From UHGV virus genome UHGV-1354897: a stretch of DNA of 61,496 nt; one strand, given 5' to 3'. A program made the translations under genes and the position numbers. Source of the stretch: a virus. How positions within the stretch are numbered: position 1 is the stretch's first letter; every line of letters begins with the position of its first letter. Under the pieces are notes generated by a model that ran no database searches, was not told the DNA's origin, and saw nothing but the letters and a program-made list of their open reading frames with translations. Shown here in pieces: positions 49,867 through 57,507 of this stretch.

Positions 49867-51426
49867 TTAAATACCGATAGTTTTACCGACACCTGTATAA
49901 ACAGCTTGATCCAGAACCATATAACGTACTTCATCGCCCATATGGTCTTCACATTCCGTATCAACGTCGTCCTGATCTACTTCATCACGAGGAAGACTTG
50001 GAACAAGTTCAAAAAAATAATTGCAATTATCGAAAACATACATTGCTGGATTTTCACGTGGTCCCGGCAAAGGTTTACCGTTTGCATCTTCCCGCAACGC
50101 GGCTTTAAGAAACTCACGCATTTTCTGCCATCCGCGTTTACGCGACCCAGCAGATTTATCACTTCTCTTCCAATGGATGCCGTTATACAGCTTGCCGTTG
50201 AGACGGATTTTCTTCGCCATTGTTGCAGCGGTGGAGTTATTGTTCTCCAGATCCCAAATAGAATTATCCGCAGGTCCAGGAACTACACGGTCGTGTATAC
50301 CCCAGGCCAATTCCCGCTCCAGTATACCGCTTGCAATCTCTGAGTCCAGCAAATGTAGGCCTTCGTTTGTTTTACCGTTAGTGCCGTACCATTCGTTAAT
50401 ACGGAACAAGTCACCGCGAACAGTAGAGAATGTAGTACCATCTTCACGTACAACATCCGAACCGTCACTAATAGCCCACCAGCCAACGGAGAATGGTTTT
50501 GAAGAACCCCAGTCGAAAGAACGTGTAATCTTCCAGCTTGATGGGATTGGGAATGGGCGTATTTTATGAACAGTGCTACGCCACAGATCATCGAACATAC
50601 CGCCGGAGGTGATATCCCAGCTACCGCCTAACCATGCAGCTCGTTTGTTCGGGTCTGTGATGGACATAAGCTCTGCAATATATTTCGGGCTCAGGTTTTT
50701 GTTCTCGCGGTAAGATCCGAAGATATGACATTGCGTCGTAACCACATCTTCCTCTTTCTGCGTCCGCGGGTTAAACACTCGCGTAGTTTTCCTGAGTATC
50801 TTACCCATCGGTGCAGCGTCAATGAAGCGTTTCTTAACCCAGTTATGTCCCGCGCCAAACGGGTTACTGGTAGCAAACACTTCCAGAGGAATGTCTGGTA
50901 AATATGTAACAGTACCGTCCGGATTGATAATCGGATTATCTTCTGGTAGGAATGATGAACGGTTACAGGACATCATTGCTTCAAACAAACGCCCGTCCGG
51001 ATACTTTGTTAATTCGTTCCATCCGATAAACGGGTATTCGTGACCATGATAAGACCAATAATCCTTTTCTTTGCAAGCAACACGGAACAGCAATTCTTCC
51101 CCAGTGGGCCAAACCCATTTATAATCAGACTTGGAACTAAGGAATTTAGCACCATCTTTAAATTCAGGGAACCAACGCTGTGATTTGGTTACAAGGTCAT
51201 CAAGGTTTTTATATTCACGGTCGAATATAATGCCTTTCCAGAATTTACCGTACCCTACGCCAACATTCTTACGGAAACGCATAAGCTGGCAGTCTGTTTT
51301 TCCAGGACCGCGAGTTCCGTGGTATAAGATGATATCGGCAGGGCAGGATAAAGCGAGCGTCTGTGAACCTGGATGTGGCTTCCAGACTACTCGCGGCATG
51401 TTATCAGGTTGTCGGTTTAGCTCCAT
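49867..51426 (-). CDS. terL: terminase large subunit
   Basis: 519-aa ORF with P-loop-like GTRGPGKTD near N-terminus; follows the small-subunit gene. Confidence 0.75.
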   Translation of the reverse strand: MELNRQPDNMPRVVWKPHPGSQTLALSCPADIILYHGTRGPGKTDCQLMRFRKNVGVGYGKFWKGIIFDREYKNLDDLVTKSQRWFPEFKDGAKFLSSKSDYKWVWPTGEELLFRVACKEKDYWSYHGHEYPFIGWNELTKYPDGRLFEAMMSCNRSSFLPEDNPIINPDGTVTYLPDIPLEVFATSNPFGAGHNWVKKRFIDAAPMGKILRKTTRVFNPRTQKEEDVVTTQCHIFGSYRENKNLSPKYIAELMSITDPNKRAAWLGGSWDITSGGMFDDLWRSTVHKIRPFPIPSSWKITRSFDWGSSKPFSVGWWAISDGSDVVREDGTTFSTVRGDLFRINEWYGTNGKTNEGLHLLDSEIASGILERELAWGIHDRVVPGPADNSIWDLENNNSTAATMAKKIRLNGKLYNGIHWKRSDKSAGSRKRGWQKMREFLKAALREDANGKPLPGPRENPAMYVFDNCNYFFELVPSLPRDEVDQDDVDTECEDHMGDEVRYMVLDQAVYTGVGKTIGI

Positions 51427-51961
51427 CTTCAGTCTCTTTAACTAGTCGTTGTTGAGACTCGGATGCAGTTTTTTCCCATTCGTCAATATTTGCTACAGCA
51501 GGGACTATCATTACGCCGCCTCTGTTAGTAACATCAATTTTAGCCTTCTTGGGAGCATCCAAATCATAAATTTGTGCAAGCTTGCCCAATGCGGCTACTC
51601 TAGCAGCTTGAGAAGATCCCGGTCCTGTATAATGAGCTTCACGTTTTAATGCTTCAATGATATGCTGACGCTCTAGGTCTGCTTCAATGTTAGCTTGCTC
51701 AGAAGTACGTTGAACACGGGATCTTTCAATCTCCTTGAGCTTCCATCGAACGTAACAGTCCGTGGCAAAGCGTTGGCCAAGCTCCTGTGCAAACATAGCA
51801 TTGAACCCGCATCTCATGCAAGCGTTAGTCCAATTGTAGTCGAACATATACTCAGCAACAACTTTGTCACGTATTGCCATCTCGTCAGCGGACAAGCTAT
51901 TTGCATACTGGATATAGTTCGTCCAGTCACGATCATATTGCTCTTGACTTGCCCCGTTCAT
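51404..51961 (-). CDS. terS: terminase small subunit
   Basis: 185-aa ORF immediately upstream of and overlapping terL. Confidence 0.55.
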   Translation of the reverse strand: MNGASQEQYDRDWTNYIQYANSLSADEMAIRDKVVAEYMFDYNWTNACMRCGFNAMFAQELGQRFATDCYVRWKLKEIERSRVQRTSEQANIEADLERQHIIEALKREAHYTGPGSSQAARVAALGKLAQIYDLDAPKKAKIDVTNRGGVMIVPAVANIDEWEKTASESQQRLVKETEDGAKPTT

Positions 51962-51981
51962 GGAAGCTCCCCTTCTTATTG

Positions 51982-52287
51982 CTATTTAGGCTGAATATAA
52001 TTGCTTGATCCTACAAAATCAAGCGAAACATTTTCAGCTTCATAGCGTATGATTTCCTTAACCCTTAGCTTACATTCAGTCAGAGCAGTTTCTGTATCCT
52101 GTAAACGTCGGATAATATCTCTTGTGTAAACCAAAGGAATTTTCTCAACTTCCCGACATTCCACCAGTAGATGTGCGGGTAGTCTTACCTTCACTATCTG
52201 TGGAGCTGGAGGAGGTTGAGTTTGCGTCGAGCAACCTGCGCAAATCATCAGGAATACGCTCGTTAAGATAAGCTTTGACGTCAGCAT
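51982..52287 (-). CDS. putative outer-membrane spanin lipoprotein (o-spanin), overlapping the i-spanin gene
   Basis: From internal Met: MLTSKLILTSVFLMICAGCS with lipobox-like Cys, then Pro-rich PPPAPQ; different frame from the i-spanin 3' end. Confidence 0.45.
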   Translation of the reverse strand: MLTSKLILTSVFLMICAGCSTQTQPPPAPQIVKVRLPAHLLVECREVEKIPLVYTRDIIRRLQDTETALTECKLRVKEIIRYEAENVSLDFVGSSNYIQPK

Positions 52288-52621
52288 TGCTTTTCTCCAG
52301 TGTCTGCAACTTGTCCTGAAGCAACTTGTGGTTATGTTGTTCATCTTGAATTGCAGAAGTTAGTTTCTTGAAAGAGTCCGTGTCCTTCTCCCTTTGTGCA
52401 GCAAGAAATACAACAGCCTCGCCCAGCTTTGCATTGTCTTTCTCCACAACGGTTAAACGTTCTTCAGCCAAACTTAAATTTGATTTGTTAAGCTCGTTCT
52501 GTGACCACAGGTAGGCGGCCACCCCGCATAAAAACACTACCGCGCCGATCATCAAATACTCGATAAACAGACGCGGTTTAGCTTTTATGAAGCCGAAGAA
52601 GTTATTTAGAATCATTTTCAT
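52145..52621 (-). CDS. putative inner-membrane spanin (i-spanin)
   Basis: N-terminal transmembrane helix followed by coiled-coil; immediately after the holin. Confidence 0.55.
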   Translation of the reverse strand: MKMILNNFFGFIKAKPRLFIEYLMIGAVVFLCGVAAYLWSQNELNKSNLSLAEERLTVVEKDNAKLGEAVVFLAAQREKDTDSFKKLTSAIQDEQHNHKLLQDKLQTLEKSNADVKAYLNERIPDDLRRLLDANSTSSSSTDSEGKTTRTSTGGMSGS

Positions 52622-52946
52622 GTTTGCAGTCCTCTGAGTCGAGTTTGATCCCTGTCCGCGATGCTAGAAGCGACTTTAGAGCTTTTAGCGTAGCACGTGA
52701 ACCCGCCCAAGCGAATAGGCCAGCAAGGCCAAAAGCGAACCAAAGGCTGATATTAAACTCCCTGTAGATCGCGTACATTATAACGCCGAAGAACGCGGCG
52801 GATAAGCCCTCAAGACATGCAATGCTTAACCGTACTTTCTTACCAGCGTCAATTGTGCGCATGACGTAACCGAGAGCTCCCCCAATGAGGGAAATCAGAG
52901 CAAACCCCGCTAGAACTGCCCAATGTTCGTTTGATGAGTTGAACAT
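52602..52946 (-). CDS. putative holin
   Basis: Small protein with three hydrophobic helices and charged C-terminus; GGAGGG RBS before ATG at 52946; between endolysin and spanin candidates. Confidence 0.55.
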   Translation of the reverse strand: MFNSSNEHWAVLAGFALISLIGGALGYVMRTIDAGKKVRLSIACLEGLSAAFFGVIMYAIYREFNISLWFAFGLAGLFAWAGSRATLKALKSLLASRTGIKLDSEDCKHENDSK

Positions 52947-52982
52947 GTTCCCTCCAATAAAAAGGGGCTGACGCCCCATCAG

Positions 52983-53420
52983 TTAAATTACCATTGCAAT
53001 AGCGCGGTCGATCACGTCATCAGTATAAGGCATCATGCCATTTTCATGACGAATGATTGCTTTCACCAAACCTGACATTATCGTCTTGTCGAAGACATTA
53101 ATTGGATCGTTAGGTTGAACACCAATTGCTTTAGCAACAGAGCGAATATACGCTTCCGTATCGTTTTCGTTAGGTGGTGCCCAGCGAGCGATAATTTCAC
53201 GTACAGTGTCGATGTTTTTCTTACCCACATTGGGCAAGCCTTCACGTTTGGTGTAGTTTGTCAGGACTTTCGCCAGAGCGCGGATGCCGTAGATCGGTTG
53301 CGTAAATTGTGCAAAAGATTTGTCGGTCCGCTTATCAACAGGGACCAATCCCTGCCAATTATCACCCCAGCGAATGTTACCTGGATTGTTGTTACGAATA
53401 CCACGAGGTTGAAGCGCCAT
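52983..53420 (-). CDS. putative endolysin (family not identified)
   Basis: 145-aa product from ATG at 53420 with GGAGGA RBS; N-terminal motif GIRNNNPGNIRWGDNWQGL; assignment mostly from position. Confidence 0.4.
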   Translation of the reverse strand: MALQPRGIRNNNPGNIRWGDNWQGLVPVDKRTDKSFAQFTQPIYGIRALAKVLTNYTKREGLPNVGKKNIDTVREIIARWAPPNENDTEAYIRSVAKAIGVQPNDPINVFDKTIMSGLVKAIIRHENGMMPYTDDVIDRAIAMVI

Positions 53421-53502
53421 ATCGAGTTCCTCCGCTTGACATGAACCACTCAAGGGTAACAGAGAAACTTGATACGGCGCAAGGAGAATTGATCTAAGAA
53501 GA

Positions 53503-53763
53503 TTACCCGTCAAACCACTCGCTAATGTACCAGCTAACAAGACCTTTTCCACCTTTATCGACCCCGTAGCTGGAGTAAAAAGTGAAGTTATCGGGTTCGT
53601 GTTGCAGGATAACCATAAAGTCATGCTGAGTGCTGTCAATAATTGCAATGGCGATTTCCTCGTTATCTGTGATAAAGATTTCGCCACCAATTACAACATG
53701 CGTCCCGTGGTCAACTACCTTGCTGTGATAAGCAGGTGGGATCAGGTGACTGAATGTAGTCAT
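53503..53763 (-). CDS. hypothetical protein
   Basis: 86-aa ORF. Confidence 0.5.
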   Translation of the reverse strand: MTTFSHLIPPAYHSKVVDHGTHVVIGGEIFITDNEEIAIAIIDSTQHDFMVILQHEPDNFTFYSSYGVDKGGKGLVSWYISEWFDG

Positions 53764-54228
53764 TTAAAAACCCTCAAACGATATTGTATCAACGCCAAGA
53801 AATGCACATGTGGTATGCTTGATTGCTAGCTCGATAGCTTCGCGTGCGCTTGCACCAGCAGCCAGAGCTCCCGCAGCAAACACGCAACCACTGCCATCCG
53901 ACCCCCATCCATCCAGCATGGGTTCGCTCAAAGTACCATCATTATAAATAAAATGGCAAGTACCTTCCGGAGTAACAGCAAGACCGCAAGTTTGCCCATA
54001 ATCGTCATCTTTGCTGTAAACTTTAATATCTGGGAACTTAACAGGCTCAGGACTATTAAAATAGCGCAACACCTGATCGGTAAATGCTGTAAGACCGCAC
54101 AAGCCTAGTAAAAACCGTCCACGATGTCCATTTACGCTGTGAACTTTCTTATATGCAGTCACAACTTCCCCGCGCATAACTCCACGGTCCGCAGCTAATA
54201 CTTTTCCATCGTAAGCAATGGTTGTCAT
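53764..54228 (-). CDS. HslV/proteasome-beta-like Ntn-hydrolase peptidase
   Basis: N-terminus MTTIAYDGKVLAADR with Thr at position 2; C-terminal GWGSDGSGCVFAAGALAAGASAREAIELAIKHT resembles HslV segment GSGGPYAQAAARALLE...ARDIAEKALDIA (recalled from memory). Confidence 0.55.
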   Translation of the reverse strand: MTTIAYDGKVLAADRGVMRGEVVTAYKKVHSVNGHRGRFLLGLCGLTAFTDQVLRYFNSPEPVKFPDIKVYSKDDDYGQTCGLAVTPEGTCHFIYNDGTLSEPMLDGWGSDGSGCVFAAGALAAGASAREAIELAIKHTTCAFLGVDTISFEGF

Positions 54229-54410
54229 TTAATTTTCCTTTGGTCTTGGATAATAACAATACATAAAACAAACAGAATAAGACAGATGCACAGTCCTGTA
54301 CTTGCAAAGATTCGGATAACCGTGGAAGGTTGTTCGACTACTGTATAGGTATAAAGCCCAGCGAACATTAACGTCGCAAATAAAAACAATCCGGCGTATA
54401 GTTTGGTCAT
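54225..54410 (-). CDS. hypothetical small membrane protein
   Basis: 61-aa ORF with two hydrophobic helices. Confidence 0.45.
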   Translation of the reverse strand: MTKLYAGLFLFATLMFAGLYTYTVVEQPSTVIRIFASTGLCICLILFVLCIVIIQDQRKIK

Positions 54411-54472
54411 TGTGTACCCCTCTTATTCGATGGGTACACAATACAATGAAGGATTATCTGATAGCAAGGTTT

Positions 54473-54895
54473 TTAATTAAGCACAATCTCAACGTCTTTA
54501 ACCCAAGTATGAATGATAAATGCTCCTGGCTGTTCAGGATCTTGATCCGGGCCAACGTAGAACTTTTTACCTTCCCAACCTTTAATTGGGTCATGTACAA
54601 TAAACTTGTGATTAGTTGTATCGATCACAACCTGATGCAGTGCTCCAGGAACATTGAGACTTGGGACAGTGCACAAAAACAAACCACCCATGTATATAGT
54701 TTCACGCCCACCGCCTACAGAACAGATGTGGTCAACATTGTTTTGTACTAAATATTCGGAAATTGTTATTTCCCAGTTATTGTAATATCGATCATGAAAT
54801 TCCGCAATTACTTCTTCTACAGGTCTATTAAGGATCATCGCCAGACACGCAGAAACGCATGTATTCAATGTTGGTTGCTTGACGTGTTTAATCAT
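54473..54895 (-). CDS. papain-like cysteine peptidase (C39-like)
   Basis: QPTLNTCVSACLAMIL matches the C39 catalytic-Cys signature; downstream His/Asp candidates in NHKFIVHDP. Confidence 0.5.
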   Translation of the reverse strand: MIKHVKQPTLNTCVSACLAMILNRPVEEVIAEFHDRYYNNWEITISEYLVQNNVDHICSVGGGRETIYMGGLFLCTVPSLNVPGALHQVVIDTTNHKFIVHDPIKGWEGKKFYVGPDQDPEQPGAFIIHTWVKDVEIVLN

Positions 54896-54896
54896 C

Positions 54897-55367
54897 TTAT
54901 GCCTCGTATATGACTTCCGGCTCGTTATTATAAGGACGCAGCAGCAAACGCGCTACCAGCGCCGTACGCTCGCTCAACCCTTGCGGATGCACAAACCCAA
55001 CGAACTGGTAGTGACAACCGCGCAGGTGGTGCAAGCTCTTAGCACAATGACACGCTTCCAAACGAAGTGTCTCGCCCGACTGCCATTTAACCACAATGGT
55101 AGAACTCGCGGTCATGTTAATTTCTACGTCACCAATATCTATTTGAAGACGTAAAAGATCTTCTACAACATTACGGACATAGACAAGGATCTGTGATGTA
55201 GGCATAACAATGAGCCCATTCCAATCCTTCCCGCGACCCAATCCGCAATAACGCGCAAAGTTGGCTATCAACTGCGTTTCTGTAACCTGTTTTACTTCAA
55301 ACGACTTCTTCAGTTGGCAGTCTTTGGATTCGTCCATTGCATCAACAATAGTTTTAACGTCAGTCAT
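54897..55367 (-). CDS. hypothetical protein
   Basis: 156-aa ORF; Cys/His cluster EACHCAKSLHHLRGCH. Confidence 0.55.
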   Translation of the reverse strand: MTDVKTIVDAMDESKDCQLKKSFEVKQVTETQLIANFARYCGLGRGKDWNGLIVMPTSQILVYVRNVVEDLLRLQIDIGDVEINMTASSTIVVKWQSGETLRLEACHCAKSLHHLRGCHYQFVGFVHPQGLSERTALVARLLLRPYNNEPEVIYEA

Positions 55368-55370
55368 TAT

Positions 55371-55763
55371 TTACTCCGCTAATGTGTAAGGAATACCGGA
55401 TGCTTTAATCCGTCTGTACATGTCCATAGTACCAGCTCCGCCCGGAAACACAATAGCGTGATCTGGTTTGGGATCAGTATCCAGCATTACTTGATTGCGG
55501 TAAGCGCCTGCTTGCGCATTATAAGCTCCCTTGGCGTTATACCGTATCTTGGTATTTGGTAAGGAAAGATTGTCCCACGGGGCAGGGAACGCTTCTGTCT
55601 TAACACCGTTGCGCTCTGCCCAATGTGCGCAAATCCGGTCAACACCGTCAGCGTCACCGTGACGAAGTGTGGTTATCCTTCTTTGCGTATGCAACTTATC
55701 CAGTTGAGCATAAATATACTCTACATGTTTAAAATCACGCCCTCCGGTGACGACTAATAGCAT
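55371..55763 (-). CDS. DUF2493-like (SLOG-type Rossmann) protein
   Basis: Pattern VVTGGRDF...LD...HGDADGVD...FPGGAGT matches the DUF2493 consensus as I recall it. Confidence 0.55.
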   Translation of the reverse strand: MLLVVTGGRDFKHVEYIYAQLDKLHTQRRITTLRHGDADGVDRICAHWAERNGVKTEAFPAPWDNLSLPNTKIRYNAKGAYNAQAGAYRNQVMLDTDPKPDHAIVFPGGAGTMDMYRRIKASGIPYTLAE

Positions 55764-55826
55764 TATTTCTTCTCCAATGGTTTCAACATTTCATCAATAA
55801 AGCCTTTCCAATATTTGATATTTTCT

Positions 55827-56369
55827 TCAATCACCAATAACCTCCTTAAAACGGTTATACAAATCACGATAGAACAAAGGACCATATTTGTTACGACGCA
55901 GGAAGTCCTTTGCTACAGCTTCCAGAGCTTCGCAGCGATCACGCAACTCTTGAGCCTTCTTCTCGGTATGCGCCCACACCTCTTCGCTGGTCACACCCGG
56001 CGGATTCATTGCACCAACAATTTGACGCAAACGAATATAAGAATCGGATAAAGCGTGTTCAGCAGCACGCATGTCGACAAGGTTAGTTTCAGCATTTTCG
56101 GCACGTTCTTCCTGAGCTCGCCATTCAGCTTCTAACTGGTCAATGCGCATGTCACGATAACCCAGCTCCGCAGCAATATCACCTTTGCTGTGCAAGCCTT
56201 CGGACGTCATCGCCATAACATGACGGGAGTAATAACCTCCAGCTTGATCCAGTTCCCAAGCGTCACGCTCACGGTATAAACAATCACACTCCACCAGAAT
56301 AGGTTCACCCCACGGTTGAACGCCACCACTATCAACCATTCCTGTCCCGTTACATTTTTGACAGCTCAT
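55827..56369 (-). CDS. hypothetical protein with N-terminal CxxCxGxG zinc-ribbon-like motif
   Basis: MSCQKCNGTGM...CDC; AGGTGGAG RBS before ATG at 56369. Confidence 0.55.
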   Translation of the reverse strand: MSCQKCNGTGMVDSGGVQPWGEPILVECDCLYRERDAWELDQAGGYYSRHVMAMTSEGLHSKGDIAAELGYRDMRIDQLEAEWRAQEERAENAETNLVDMRAAEHALSDSYIRLRQIVGAMNPPGVTSEEVWAHTEKKAQELRDRCEALEAVAKDFLRRNKYGPLFYRDLYNRFKEVIGD

Positions 56370-56371
56370 TA

Positions 56372-56596
56372 TTATCTCCACCTGTTACGGTCATTGCATT
56401 TATATTCATACTCGGTAATAACCTGAGGATACATTGGCATAACATTACCTTTTGCATCGTAGATATATTGCCAAATGATAACCTCCCGGCTATTACCAGT
56501 ACGTTGACAATTTTGCCGCTCCATTTCTTTGGAGTCTACAATTGCAAATACAACGAAAGCGGCAATTATAGCGCCTAATATCATGAATATTTTCAT
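56372..56596 (-). CDS. hypothetical small membrane protein
   Basis: 74-aa ORF with one N-terminal hydrophobic helix. Confidence 0.5.
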   Translation of the reverse strand: MKIFMILGAIIAAFVVFAIVDSKEMERQNCQRTGNSREVIIWQYIYDAKGNVMPMYPQVITEYEYKCNDRNRWR

Positions 56597-56895
56597 GGGT
56601 TAAGCCTATATTCTTTGATTTCCCTTAGCGTATCACGCCAGTCCATACCTTCAAGGTCAACTTCACCGCAGTAGCGAACTCGCCAACCATCAAAGTTTAT
56701 CAACCATTGTTTCTCCGCTTCATAGAAATCAGGTTCTTCGTCATAGCAATGTACTTTACCGTCTGCATCTACAGCGATAAAGTTAGCCCAGGGCTCAACA
56801 GGGATAGTAAACCCATAATAGTCGGTAAATACTTGCGTCTCCTTGTTAACAGAAGGAATTTCGTGTCCAGTTTCATCCATTCCTAAATAAAGCAT
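56593..56895 (-). CDS. hypothetical protein, member of a two-gene paralog family (partner 57226..57507)
   Basis: Shared motifs P-x-WAN-[FW]-[IL]-AVD and Y-x-E-P-x-[FI]-[YD]-E with the 57226..57507 product. Confidence 0.6.
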   Translation of the reverse strand: MLYLGMDETGHEIPSVNKETQVFTDYYGFTIPVEPWANFIAVDADGKVHCYDEEPDFYEAEKQWLINFDGWRVRYCGEVDLEGMDWRDTLREIKEYRLNP

Positions 56896-57225: not shown

Positions 57226-57507
57226 TTAAGCCTCCGAACTAACATTAACTAAAGAATTTACCCAACGACCTTCTTCGAAAGGAAACTTGCAGATATATTC
57301 GGATTTACCCATATCCTCATACCATTTGTCGTAATCGTCGCATTCGTCTATATAAGGTTCCTTTTCATATGCGTATAGATCTTCGCATTTATCAACCGCA
57401 AGCCAGTTTGCCCAGGCAGGTACTACAACCTGAGTCCCAAAATAGTTAACAATCTTTTTCCCCTCTTCTACACGCATTCTTCTTTCCTCTATATATTTTT
57501 CTGCCAT
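57226..57507 (-). CDS. hypothetical protein, paralog of 56593..56895
   Basis: See the 56593..56895 entry. Confidence 0.6.
   Translation of the reverse strand: MAEKYIEERRMRVEEGKKIVNYFGTQVVVPAWANWLAVDKCEDLYAYEKEPYIDECDDYDKWYEDMGKSEYICKFPFEEGRWVNSLVNVSSEA

What the first reader, a model, noticed from the sequence alone, without database searches (positions are those of the whole stretch)
53764..55763. Gene group with an HslV-like Ntn peptidase, a C39-like cysteine peptidase and a DUF2493 protein
Three adjacent or near-adjacent leftward genes carry catalytic signatures: an N-terminal-Thr HslV/proteasome-beta-like protein, a papain-like C39 signature (CVSACLAMIL) and a SLOG-type DUF2493 domain. 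A 61-aa membrane protein and a Cys/His-rich unknown are interleaved. Two peptidases beside a nucleotide-processing-like domain could be a host-modulating or counter-defence module.
Basis: partly seen in the sequence, partly recalled or inferred. Interest (0 to 1): 0.65.

Follow-up and report, generated by a model that had tools for sequence, protein, structure and literature searches.

The report
Two small peptidases before phage terminase
A known type of E. coli phage (Seuratvirus) carries, just upstream of its lysis and DNA-packaging genes, a tight run of small genes that really do encode a proteasome-like threonine peptidase, a C39-like cysteine peptidase and a nucleotide-binding SLOG protein, but they look like independent accessory enzymes of unknown role rather than one counter-defence machine.

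Summary
Window 53764-55763 (minus strand) holds five tightly packed ORFs, with a sixth just downstream. All six are under strong purifying selection (dN/dS 0.04-0.11).

The three domain calls hold:
- HslV/proteasome-beta-like Ntn peptidase: PHROG 6e-33, profile against solved HslV 1.5e-7, and Thr2, Asp14, Lys28, Gly45 and GSG112-114 conserved.
- YAcAr/DUF2493 SLOG: Pfam 3e-18.

The "Cys/His-rich unknown" is a Walker-less paralogue of the phage's own large-terminase ATPase domain.

The window is a near-complete Seuratvirus genome, and public records already carry most of these labels. The "module" reading is only partly supported. Each family occurs alone in many other phages. The HslV-like family habitually sits beside terminase, portal and head genes. 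The C39-like gene sits in the replication/nin region of lambdoid phages. The YAcAr gene is a presence/absence cassette. Even so, the trio is adjacent in three related genera. No function is known. Counter-defence is neither supported nor excluded.

The parts
55371..55763 (-). YAcAr (DUF2493) SLOG-superfamily protein, 130 aa. Both Gly-rich nucleotide-binding loops are present (TGGRD near the N-terminus, PGGAGT near residue 108).
   Evidence: Pfam PF10686 3.1e-18, above the cut-off. PHROG 289 1.1e-23. 791 phage records hold homologues. Absent from sister phage ECP2304, with breakpoints at the gene borders.
54897..55367 (-). 156-aa paralogue of the large-terminase ATPase domain that has lost Walker A and Walker B. 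It carries invariant Cys/His residues (C41, C106, C108, H114, H127).
54473..54895 (-). Standalone C39-like papain-fold cysteine peptidase, 140 aa. Predicted tetrad Gln7/Cys13/His87/Asp102.
54225..54410 (-). 61-aa protein with two hydrophobic helices. Its stop overlaps the HslV-like start (ATGA).
   Evidence: ORF list. PHROG 22841 6e-45. dN/dS 0.07. A 61-aa ORF occupies the same position and overlaps the HslV-like start in Hafnia phage yong3, but phmmer found no sequence match there.
53764..54228 (-). HslV/proteasome-beta-like Ntn threonine peptidase, 154 aa, with no propeptide (Met-Thr start).
   Evidence: PHROG 1040 5.9e-33. Family profile against solved HslV 1.5e-7 and BPH 2.7e-7. T2, D14, G45 and G112/G114 are invariant and K28 aligns with HslV K33. 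Present at 95-100% identity in all Seuratvirus records found.
53503..53763 (-). 86-aa protein of unknown function, directly abutting the HslV-like stop. A homologue follows the HslV-like gene in phages yong3 and Kpn2-P2 as well.
   Evidence: PHROG 23528 3e-50. phmmer hits immediately downstream of HslV-like in L094 (3e-19) and L091 (5.7e-5).
51404..53420 (-). Downstream context in the same orientation: endolysin (52983-53420), holin (52602-52979), overlapping spanins (52145-52621 and 51982-52344) and the terminase small subunit (51404-51961). TerL (49867-51426), portal, scaffold and major head protein follow.
   Evidence: PHROG hits. Seurat RefSeq annotation.

Best explanation
This is a real, co-oriented and translationally packed run of conserved genes. 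It lies in the 'pre-terminase' region of a Seuratvirus (Queuovirinae), immediately upstream of the lysis cassette, terminase and head genes. It is best read as a string of independent single-domain proteins rather than one multi-part system.

(1) The HslV-like protein is a propeptide-less Ntn threonine peptidase of a phage-specific short family (about 140-155 aa). It has all proteasome/HslV catalytic residues but no cognate HslU. By analogy with HslV, BPH and Anbu it should form a ring-shaped, self-compartmentalised peptidase (inferred). Across many phage lineages its gene sits beside or inside the terminase-portal-head module. It is therefore most likely a late-expressed peptidase whose substrates are linked to packaging or head assembly, or are present at that stage (inferred, about 0.3).

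(2) The C39-like protein is a standalone Gln/Cys/His/Asp papain-fold endopeptidase with nucleophile Cys13. It probably makes a specific cut after small residues in an unknown phage or host protein. In lambdoid relatives it is a replication/nin-region gene, so it probably acts independently of the HslV-like protein.

(3) YAcAr is an optional nucleotide- or ligand-binding SLOG cassette.

(4) The 156-aa protein is a catalytically dead offshoot of the terminase ATPase domain. It may be a terminase regulator or a mimic.

Shown here: gene reality, folds, catalytic residues and the distribution/synteny patterns. Inferred: oligomeric state, timing, substrates and biological role.
For: - Gene reality and selection.
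- Domain assignments.
- Genome identity and existing annotation.
- HslV-like context. Of 54 dereplicated lineages from 83 loci, 12 have TerS, TerL or portal within 300 bp, 20 within 1 kb and 26 within 2 kb. This is a lower bound, and the rough binomial p is 6e-5 against a 15% expectation. The positions include upstream of TerS/TerL, between TerL and a P22-type portal, between a T7-type portal and scaffold/capsid, and between head and Neck1 genes. In Ralstonia phage YL1 the gene overlaps the start of a 513-aa gene of large-terminase size (not profile-tested), which is followed by a 781-aa, portal-sized gene.
- Start of the operon. In Nonagvirus JenP1 and Klebsiella Kpn2-P2, the operon that runs into lysis and TerS starts only 2-3 genes upstream of the C39-like gene.
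- Independence of the families.
- YAcAr indel.
- p156 is a TerL paralogue.
- HslV-like and C39-like are present in every Seuratvirus record found and in Nonagvirus and related phages. This fits a life-cycle role better than a fast-turnover accessory gene.
Against: - No expression, proteomic or genetic data exist for any of these genes in the searchable literature.
- The region upstream of terminase is a general hotspot for accessory genes; HNH, methylase, lysis and Nin genes are also neighbours. Position alone therefore does not prove a morphogenetic role.
- T7- and P22-type heads mature without a protease.
- The trio is adjacent in Seuratvirus, PSTCR4 and Vid5 with shuffled order, and HslV-like is next to YAcAr in the unrelated L005. 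This argues for some functional coupling that this reading plays down.
- The promoter and terminator scan was no better than shuffled sequence, so the transcription unit is inferred only from orientation and spacing.
Confidence: 0.5

Rival explanations
1. Counter-defence or host-modulating module. The SLOG protein would bind or destroy a nucleotide immune signal or NAD-derived messenger. The TerL-like protein would act as a decoy for terminase-sensing immune receptors (Avs1-3, Upx). One or both peptidases would cleave host defence or regulatory proteins.
For: - YAcAr-family SLOG domains in phages have been predicted to use NAD+ or nucleotide-derived signals in conflict systems (PMC7824862, read).
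- The YAcAr gene is a presence/absence cassette, which is typical of anti-defence genes.
- The trio is adjacent in three genera with different order, and there is an HslV-YAcAr pair in an unrelated phage.
- Standalone TerL-ATPase-like phage proteins (T4 vs.8; Ksap2 weakly) interact with Avs2 (PMC11564622; bioRxiv 10.64898/2026.04.30.721860).
- HslV-like genes lie next to the very genes (terminase, portal) that Avs receptors sense.
Against: - There are no hits to defence-related models, and no anti-defence library was available.
- KpAvs2 still defends against Queuovirinae Bas19-25 by sensing TerL, so p156 does not block that receptor.
- HslV-like and C39-like are core and highly conserved in the genus rather than variable.
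- The families are mostly found apart.
- There are no experimental data.
Confidence: 0.2
2. Pure juxtaposition. The genes are unrelated morons that accumulated in a permissive slot between early genes and the lysis/packaging operon. The recurrence of the trio in related genera is inherited synteny only.
For: - Each family is widespread on its own and in different contexts.
- dS values are very uneven along the cluster (0.08 to 0.96), indicating a mosaic recombination history.
- The YAcAr indel.
- The pre-terminase slot holds many kinds of accessory genes.
Against: - Adjacency survives 28-35% protein identity and a change of gene order (Vid5 against PSTCR4).
- HslV-like next to YAcAr in an unrelated Mu-portal phage.
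- The HslV-like family is non-randomly placed near packaging genes.
Confidence: 0.2
3. The phage HslV-like subunit hijacks the host AAA+ unfoldase HslU (or replaces host HslV in HslUV) to redirect ATP-dependent degradation during infection.
For: - The catalytic residues are those of HslV.
- The E. coli host has HslU (established knowledge).
Against: - The protein shows only remote similarity to HslV: below the Pfam cut-off with no NCBIfam HslV hit. It is about 20 residues shorter, with the H2 region replaced by a loop (reading of the alignment).
- It is equally similar to BPH, which works without a known ATPase.
- The family occurs in phages of many hosts.
- The interface could not be tested because no multimer modelling was available.
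Confidence: 0.07

Closest known systems
HslV (ClpQ), the bacterial proteasome-beta homologue (MEROPS T1B), and the orphan homologues BPH and Anbu
   Same: N-terminal Thr right after Met with no propeptide. Asp17, Lys33, Gly45 and GSG-motif equivalents are conserved. A family profile matches solved HslV (1.5e-7) and BPH (2.7e-7) over almost the full length. Like BPH and Anbu, it has no adjacent AAA+ partner.
   Different: About 154 aa against 175-200 aa. It falls below the Pfam PF00227 cut-off and has no NCBIfam HslV hit. There is no HslU in the genome. It is phage-encoded and habitually linked to terminase, portal and head genes. Its oligomeric state and activity are unknown.
Peptidase C39 domains of bacteriocin/peptide-exporting ABC transporters (PCAT1, ComA, LahT)
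   Different: It is standalone at 140 aa and is not fused to a transporter. Pfam gives 13.7 bits against a 22 cut-off. No double-glycine leader peptide is encoded in the genome. It occurs in phage replication/nin or DNA-metabolism regions.
YAcAr (PF10686/DUF2493) SLOG proteins of phages and plasmids, often annotated 'DprA-like' or 'GTP-binding domain'
   Same: A clear Pfam member. It has the same size and Gly-rich loops as the many phage homologues.
   Different: Nothing distinctive. It is a single-domain version with no fused effector, and no ligand is known for any member.
Standalone terminase-ATPase-like phage proteins (T4 vs.8; Bas60 Ksap2)
   Same: p156 is a small protein homologous to and structurally like the TerL ATPase domain. 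vs.8 is described as a TerL-ATPase homologue, and Ksap2 as weakly similar to D6E TerL.
   Different: p156 lacks the Walker A lysine loop and the Walker B acidic residues that vs.8 retains. It has an invariant Cys/His set. The family is restricted to Queuovirinae. It has not been tested with any immune sensor.

Membership tests
HslV / proteasome beta (Pfam PF00227, MEROPS T1) | N-terminal threonine nucleophile exposed after Met removal (or propeptide cleavage) | tested here: met
   The ORF starts with MTTIAYDG and has no upstream in-frame start. T2 is invariant in 16 homologues.
HslV / proteasome beta (Pfam PF00227, MEROPS T1) | Asp17, Lys33, Gly45 and the Ser/Gly (GSG) loop of the active site | tested here: met
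   D14, G45 and G112-S113-G114 are invariant. K28 aligns with HslV K33 in the profile-to-4hnz alignment.
HslV / proteasome beta (Pfam PF00227, MEROPS T1) | Score above the curated family thresholds | tested here: not met
   PF00227 gives 16.2 bits against a 22.4 cut-off. No NCBIfam HslV hit. Only PHROG 1040 and a custom profile against the PDB are significant.
HslV / proteasome beta (Pfam PF00227, MEROPS T1) | Cognate HslU AAA+ partner encoded with it | tested here: not met
The neighbours are small non-ATPase genes.
HslV / proteasome beta (Pfam PF00227, MEROPS T1) | Stacked-ring oligomer with peptidase activity | not testable with these tools
Peptidase C39 (Pfam PF03412, clan CA) | Papain-like fold closest to C39 peptidase domains | tested here: met
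   [not shown]
Peptidase C39 (Pfam PF03412, clan CA) | Gln oxyanion residue, Cys nucleophile, and His and Asp in C39 spacing | tested here: met
   Q7, C13, H87 and D102 are invariant in 14 sequences down to 32% identity. C13 lies at the N-terminus of helix 13-22.
Peptidase C39 (Pfam PF03412, clan CA) | Score above the Pfam gathering threshold | tested here: not met
   13.7 bits against 22, E 0.058, and only residues 3-24 matched. A family profile finds no C39 chain in the PDB by sequence.
Peptidase C39 (Pfam PF03412, clan CA) | Association with an ABC exporter and a double-glycine leader substrate | tested here: not met
   It is a standalone 140-aa protein, and no GG-leader motif occurs in any window ORF.
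YAcAr / DUF2493 SLOG (Pfam PF10686) | Match above the curated threshold | tested here: met
   65.8 bits against 28.2, E 3.1e-18, profile positions 3-64 of 66.
YAcAr / DUF2493 SLOG (Pfam PF10686) | Gly-rich nucleotide-binding loops of the SLOG fold | tested here: met
   Read directly from the translation: VVTGGRD at residues 4-10 and FPGGAGT at about 106-112. Whether they bind a ligand is not testable here.
Large terminase ATPase domain | ASCE/RecA-like fold and sequence homology to TerL | tested here: met
   [not shown]
Large terminase ATPase domain | Walker A P-loop lysine and Walker B acidic residues | tested here: not met
   TerL GTRGPGKT(37-44) corresponds to 'FEVKQVT', and TerL FIGWNE corresponds to 'FVGFVH'. 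K47 in 'GRGKDW' is not conserved in homologues.
Known anti-phage defence system components (PADLOC-DB) | Match to any defence-system model | tested here: not met
   No hit for any of seven proteins at E<=0.01. No anti-defence protein library was available, so membership in known anti-defence families was not tested.

The most novel reading that the evidence does not exclude
The short phage HslV-like proteins could be a previously unrecognised class of late-acting morphogenetic protease. They would be Ntn-threonine, proteasome-type enzymes that process or clear scaffold, head or packaging proteins in phages lacking any canonical prohead protease. In Seuratvirus such a protease would work alongside a Walker-less terminase-ATPase paralogue that regulates or mimics TerL, for instance as a decoy for terminase-sensing immune receptors.
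Probability: 0.15. Interest if true: 0.75.

Novelty: new variant of a known kind. Interest (0 to 1): 0.4.

Why it matters
Proteasome-type peptidases that work without a partner ATPase (BPH, Anbu) are still functionally enigmatic. This work points to a phage family of them, fixed next to terminase, portal and head genes in many unrelated phage lineages. That would give a tractable genetic system (E. coli K-12 BASEL Seuratviruses) to find out what such an enzyme does.

If the family turns out to act in capsid maturation, it would add a fourth catalytic type to the known prohead proteases. If it or the neighbouring TerL-like protein acts on terminase-sensing immunity, it would bear on how phages cope with Avs/Upx receptors.

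As it stands, the gene group itself is an already-sequenced, partly annotated feature of a well-sampled phage genus, and its role is unknown.

Tried and rejected
- Single-sequence searches of the three enzymes against PDB sequences found nothing useful. A C39-like family profile also found no C39 chain by sequence, so only structure comparison worked.
- NCBIfam gave no meaningful hits, and PADLOC gave none.
- The sigma-70 promoter and terminator scan of 51.5-59.5 kb was no better than shuffles. It therefore could not define transcription units.
- I looked for a double-glycine leader substrate for the C39-like peptidase in all window ORFs. There was no strict match, and the loose matches fell only in antisense ORFs and the Ig-like decoration protein.
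- I looked for a phage HslU and found none.
- I looked for a universal partner gene next to HslV-like genes. There is none. The upstream neighbour differs between lineages (DnaT_2-like, 92-aa, 142-aa and 255-aa scaffold families).
- Literature searches for functional work on phage HslV-like peptidases, DUF2493 in phages, and Seuratvirus proteomics, transcriptomics or essentiality returned nothing relevant.
- I considered a lysis role because of the adjacent lysis cassette and the small TM protein. I rejected it for lack of any supporting similarity, and because the HslV-like family is just as often inside head modules far from lysis genes.
- I considered a link between the C39-like gene and DNA-modification genes (methylases, Mom, PAPS reductase, and QueC nearby). 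I left it as unproven, because in the largest group of contigs the neighbours are O/P replication and NinB/NinG genes.
Full report
**What the window is.**
- The region 53400-56400 is 92-97% identical at the DNA level to about 35 sequenced phages of the genus Seuratvirus (Queuovirinae). These include Seurat, CAjan, the SLUR phages, BASEL phages such as VogelGryff, and 'Aeromonas phage SD04'.
- The window is essentially a whole genome of that type.
- GC skew and ORF orientation show a long leftward block from about 58 kb to 26 kb.
- Read in the direction of transcription, this block contains many small genes, then the finding's genes.
- After those come endolysin, holin, overlapping spanins, TerS, TerL, portal, scaffold, major head protein, and the head-tail and tail genes.

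**The observation.**
A sixth ORF of 86 aa abuts the HslV-like stop.
- The ORFs fall into two tightly packed blocks. YAcAr, the 156-aa ORF and the C39-like ORF are separated by 3 nt and 1 nt. After a 62-nt gap, the TM ORF overlaps the HslV-like start (ATGA), and the HslV-like and 86-aa ORFs have no gap.
- Against phage Seurat, all six have dN/dS 0.04-0.11. They are therefore real, constrained genes.
- dS ranges from 0.08 to 0.96 along the cluster, which indicates a mosaic history.

**HslV-like protein (53764-54228).**
- Pfam Proteasome is below threshold (16.2 against 22.4 bits), and NCBIfam finds nothing.
- PHROG 1040 'peptidase HslV family' scores 5.9e-33.
- A profile of 16 homologues matches solved HslV chains (best 1.5e-7) and the orphan homologue BPH (2.7e-7) over nearly its full length. 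Weaker matches to 20S beta subunits follow.
- T2, D14, G45 and G112/G114 are invariant, and K28 aligns with HslV K33.
- The protein starts Met-Thr, as HslV does, so no propeptide is needed. Methionine aminopeptidase removes Met before Thr (established knowledge).
- It is about 20 residues shorter than HslV.

**C39-like protein (54473-54895).**
- Sequence evidence alone is weak: Pfam gives E 0.058 over residues 3-24 only, and there is no PDB hit by profile.
- With 14 homologues, AF2 gives a confident model (pLDDT 93.3, pTM 0.89).
- Foldseek's best matches are the C39 domains of PCAT1, followed by staphopain and ComA.
- Q7, C13, H87 and D102 are invariant down to 32% identity, with C39-like spacing.
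- The nucleophile should be C13, at the N-terminus of helix 13-22.
- The protein is standalone, and no double-glycine leader is encoded in the genome.

**YAcAr protein (55371-55763).**
- This is a clear PF10686 member (3.1e-18, above threshold).
- Both Gly-rich SLOG loops are visible in the sequence.
- Homologues occur in 791 phage records. These include Ackermannviridae and mycobacteriophages, where they are labelled 'DprA-like' or 'GTP-binding domain'.

**The 'Cys/His-rich unknown' (54897-55367).**
- Homologues are confined to Queuovirinae-type phages.
- A full profile search of 1.84 billion representatives finds only two clusters, both from the family itself.
- The AF2 model is of moderate quality (pLDDT 71, pTM 0.69).
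- Independently, BLASTP against the window's own TerL aligns residues 29-125 with TerL 44-136 (26% identity, E 3e-4).
- hhalign of the family against a TerL alignment gives probability 89% and E 2e-6.
- The shared signature is F..x.G.G.G..W.G(I/L)I, directly after the TerL P-loop.
- The paralogue lacks the P-loop (TerL GTRGPGKT against 'FEVKQVT') and the Walker B acid (FIGWNE against 'FVGFVH'). It cannot be an ATPase of the usual kind.
- Standalone TerL-ATPase-like phage proteins have been noted recently. T4 vs.8 retains its Walker motifs, and Bas60 Ksap2 resembles D6E TerL only weakly. Both activate Avs2 (PMC11564622; bioRxiv 10.64898/2026.04.30.721860).
- KpAvs2 still restricts Queuovirinae through TerL.

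**Is it a module?** From the HslV-like side:
- 80 IMG/VR loci plus others were collected and dereplicated to 54 lineages at 60% identity.
- 12 lineages have TerS, TerL or portal within 300 bp, 20 within 1 kb and 26 within 2 kb. At least 33 have some labelled packaging, head or neck gene within 2 kb.
- These counts are lower bounds, because only multi-member neighbour clusters were labelled.
- The placements cover several unrelated terminase and portal families:
  - just upstream of TerS/TerL;
  - between TerL and a P22-type portal;
  - between a T7-type portal and scaffold/capsid;
  - between a head-assembly protein and the capsid;
  - between head and Neck1 genes.
- In Ralstonia phage YL1 the gene overlaps the start of a 513-aa gene of large-terminase size (not profile-tested), which is followed by a 781-aa, portal-sized gene.
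- Pfam and PHROG scans of 144 mid-sized neighbours found TerS to be the commonest identifiable neighbour.
- The rest were adaptors, scaffolds, lysis enzymes, HNH, methylase and NinB/G.
- There was no C39, and the only YAcAr was the L005 protein that I added by hand.

**From the C39-like side.**
- 197 phage records carry the gene, against 60 for HslV-like.
- In Ackermannviridae it lies between the two topoisomerase II subunit genes.
- In two metagenomic phages it lies among DNA methylase, Mom and PAPS-reductase genes.
- In about 30 lambdoid-type contigs it follows the O and P (DnaC-like) replication genes and precedes NinB/NinG.
- In four of those contigs an HslV-like gene is also present, but 3-5 kb downstream, just before TerS/TerL.
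- In that lineage, therefore, the two peptidases belong to different regions and probably to different temporal classes.

**Evidence for some linkage.**
- The C39-like and HslV-like genes remain within 0-2 genes of each other in Nonagvirus JenP1, Klebsiella phage Kpn2-P2, Hafnia phage yong3 and Providencia phage PSTCR4, at 28-35% protein identity.
- PSTCR4 has YAcAr, C39 and HslV directly adjacent and overlapping.
- Pantoea phage Vid5 has C39, YAcAr and HslV adjacent in a different order.
- An unrelated Mu-portal-type phage has HslV-like followed directly by YAcAr.
- Against this, the sister Seuratvirus ECP2304 lacks the YAcAr gene, with clean breakpoints at the gene borders.
- Nonagvirus and Kpn2-P2 also show no YAcAr in the region.
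- In JenP1 and Kpn2-P2 the operon containing both peptidases starts only 2-3 genes upstream, after a divergent intergenic region, and runs into lysis and TerS. This places these genes at the head of the late block.

**What is already known.**
- RefSeq Seurat and CAjan already label the genes 'peptidase HslV family' and 'GTP-binding domain'.
- ECP2304 says 'proteasome subunit alpha type-2', and yong3 says 'ATP-dependent protease HslV'.
- CSP1C carries 'HslV', 'cysteine protease', 'T3SS chaperone' and 'DprA', but with all product names shifted by one gene.
- I found no experimental work on any of these genes.

**Conclusion.**
- The interleaved unknown is a degenerate terminase-ATPase paralogue.
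- The gene group is a conserved feature of a known phage genus, not a new system.
- The best-supported reading is a set of independent small enzymes in the pre-terminase region. The HslV-like peptidase belongs to a phage family that is non-randomly tied to packaging and head modules, so it probably acts late.
- A counter-defence role remains possible but has no positive evidence.
- The most interesting open possibilities are that the HslV-like family is a new kind of morphogenetic protease, and that the TerL paralogue regulates or mimics terminase.

Noticed in passing
[not shown]
   Followed up: yes
window about 55372-55826, compared with L095 (Escherichia phage ECP2304, OR880647) 2308-2357: The YAcAr/DUF2493 gene is a clean presence/absence cassette. 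A sister Seuratvirus that is 98% identical from the 156-aa gene onward lacks it, with breakpoints at the gene borders.
   Followed up: yes
L002 (Escherichia phage CSP1C, PQ202980) whole fetched stretch: The product names in this GenBank record are shifted by one gene relative to the CDS they belong to. 'Endolysin' sits on the holin, 'HslV' on the 86-aa gene, 'cysteine protease' on the 61-aa TM gene and 'DprA' on the 156-aa gene.
   Followed up: partly
L129 (IMG/VR copy of Pantoea phage Vid5) 6001-7309; L090 (Providencia phage PSTCR4) 2531-4016: The C39-like, YAcAr and HslV-like genes are directly adjacent in two other genera but in different orders. The order is C39-YAcAr-HslV in Vid5 and YAcAr-C39-HslV in PSTCR4.
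   Followed up: partly
L012, L013, L029, L072, L046, L058, L064, L066, L021, L032, L048 and others: Short HslV-like genes lie inside head-morphogenesis operons of T7-like and P22-like viral contigs. They sit between portal and scaffold/capsid, between scaffold and capsid, or between TerL and portal. No canonical prohead protease was seen among the labelled neighbours.
   Followed up: partly
window 53503-53763 (-); L094 4461-4727; L091 3967-4359: A homologue of the 86-aa protein follows the HslV-like gene directly in Seuratvirus, Hafnia phage yong3 and Klebsiella phage Kpn2-P2. It is therefore a possible partner of the peptidase. Its function is unknown.
   Followed up: no
window 52983-53690 (-): The mechanical ORF for the endolysin starts at a TTG 90 codons upstream of the annotated start. 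The real start is most likely the ATG at 53420 (145 aa), as in phage Seurat. A terminator-like hairpin lies at the endolysin/holin junction (52964-52977).
   Followed up: partly
window 56593-56895 (-) and 57226-57507 (-): Two small upstream genes are paralogues (phmmer 4.6e-5) sharing a 'VP(V)E/AWAN(F/W)(I/L)AVD' core. Their function is unknown.
   Followed up: no
window 55827-56381 (-): The 184-aa protein just upstream of YAcAr begins with a CxxCxGxG zinc-ribbon-like motif (CQKCNGTG), followed by a coiled-coil-like region. It has only weak PHROG hits to families of unknown function.
   Followed up: no
window 53503-55763, compared with L001 (Seurat): Synonymous divergence from Seurat is very uneven along the cluster: C39-like 0.96, HslV-like 0.53, 156-aa 0.36, YAcAr 0.27, TM 0.10 and 86-aa 0.08. 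This indicates recombination that swaps individual genes.
   Followed up: partly
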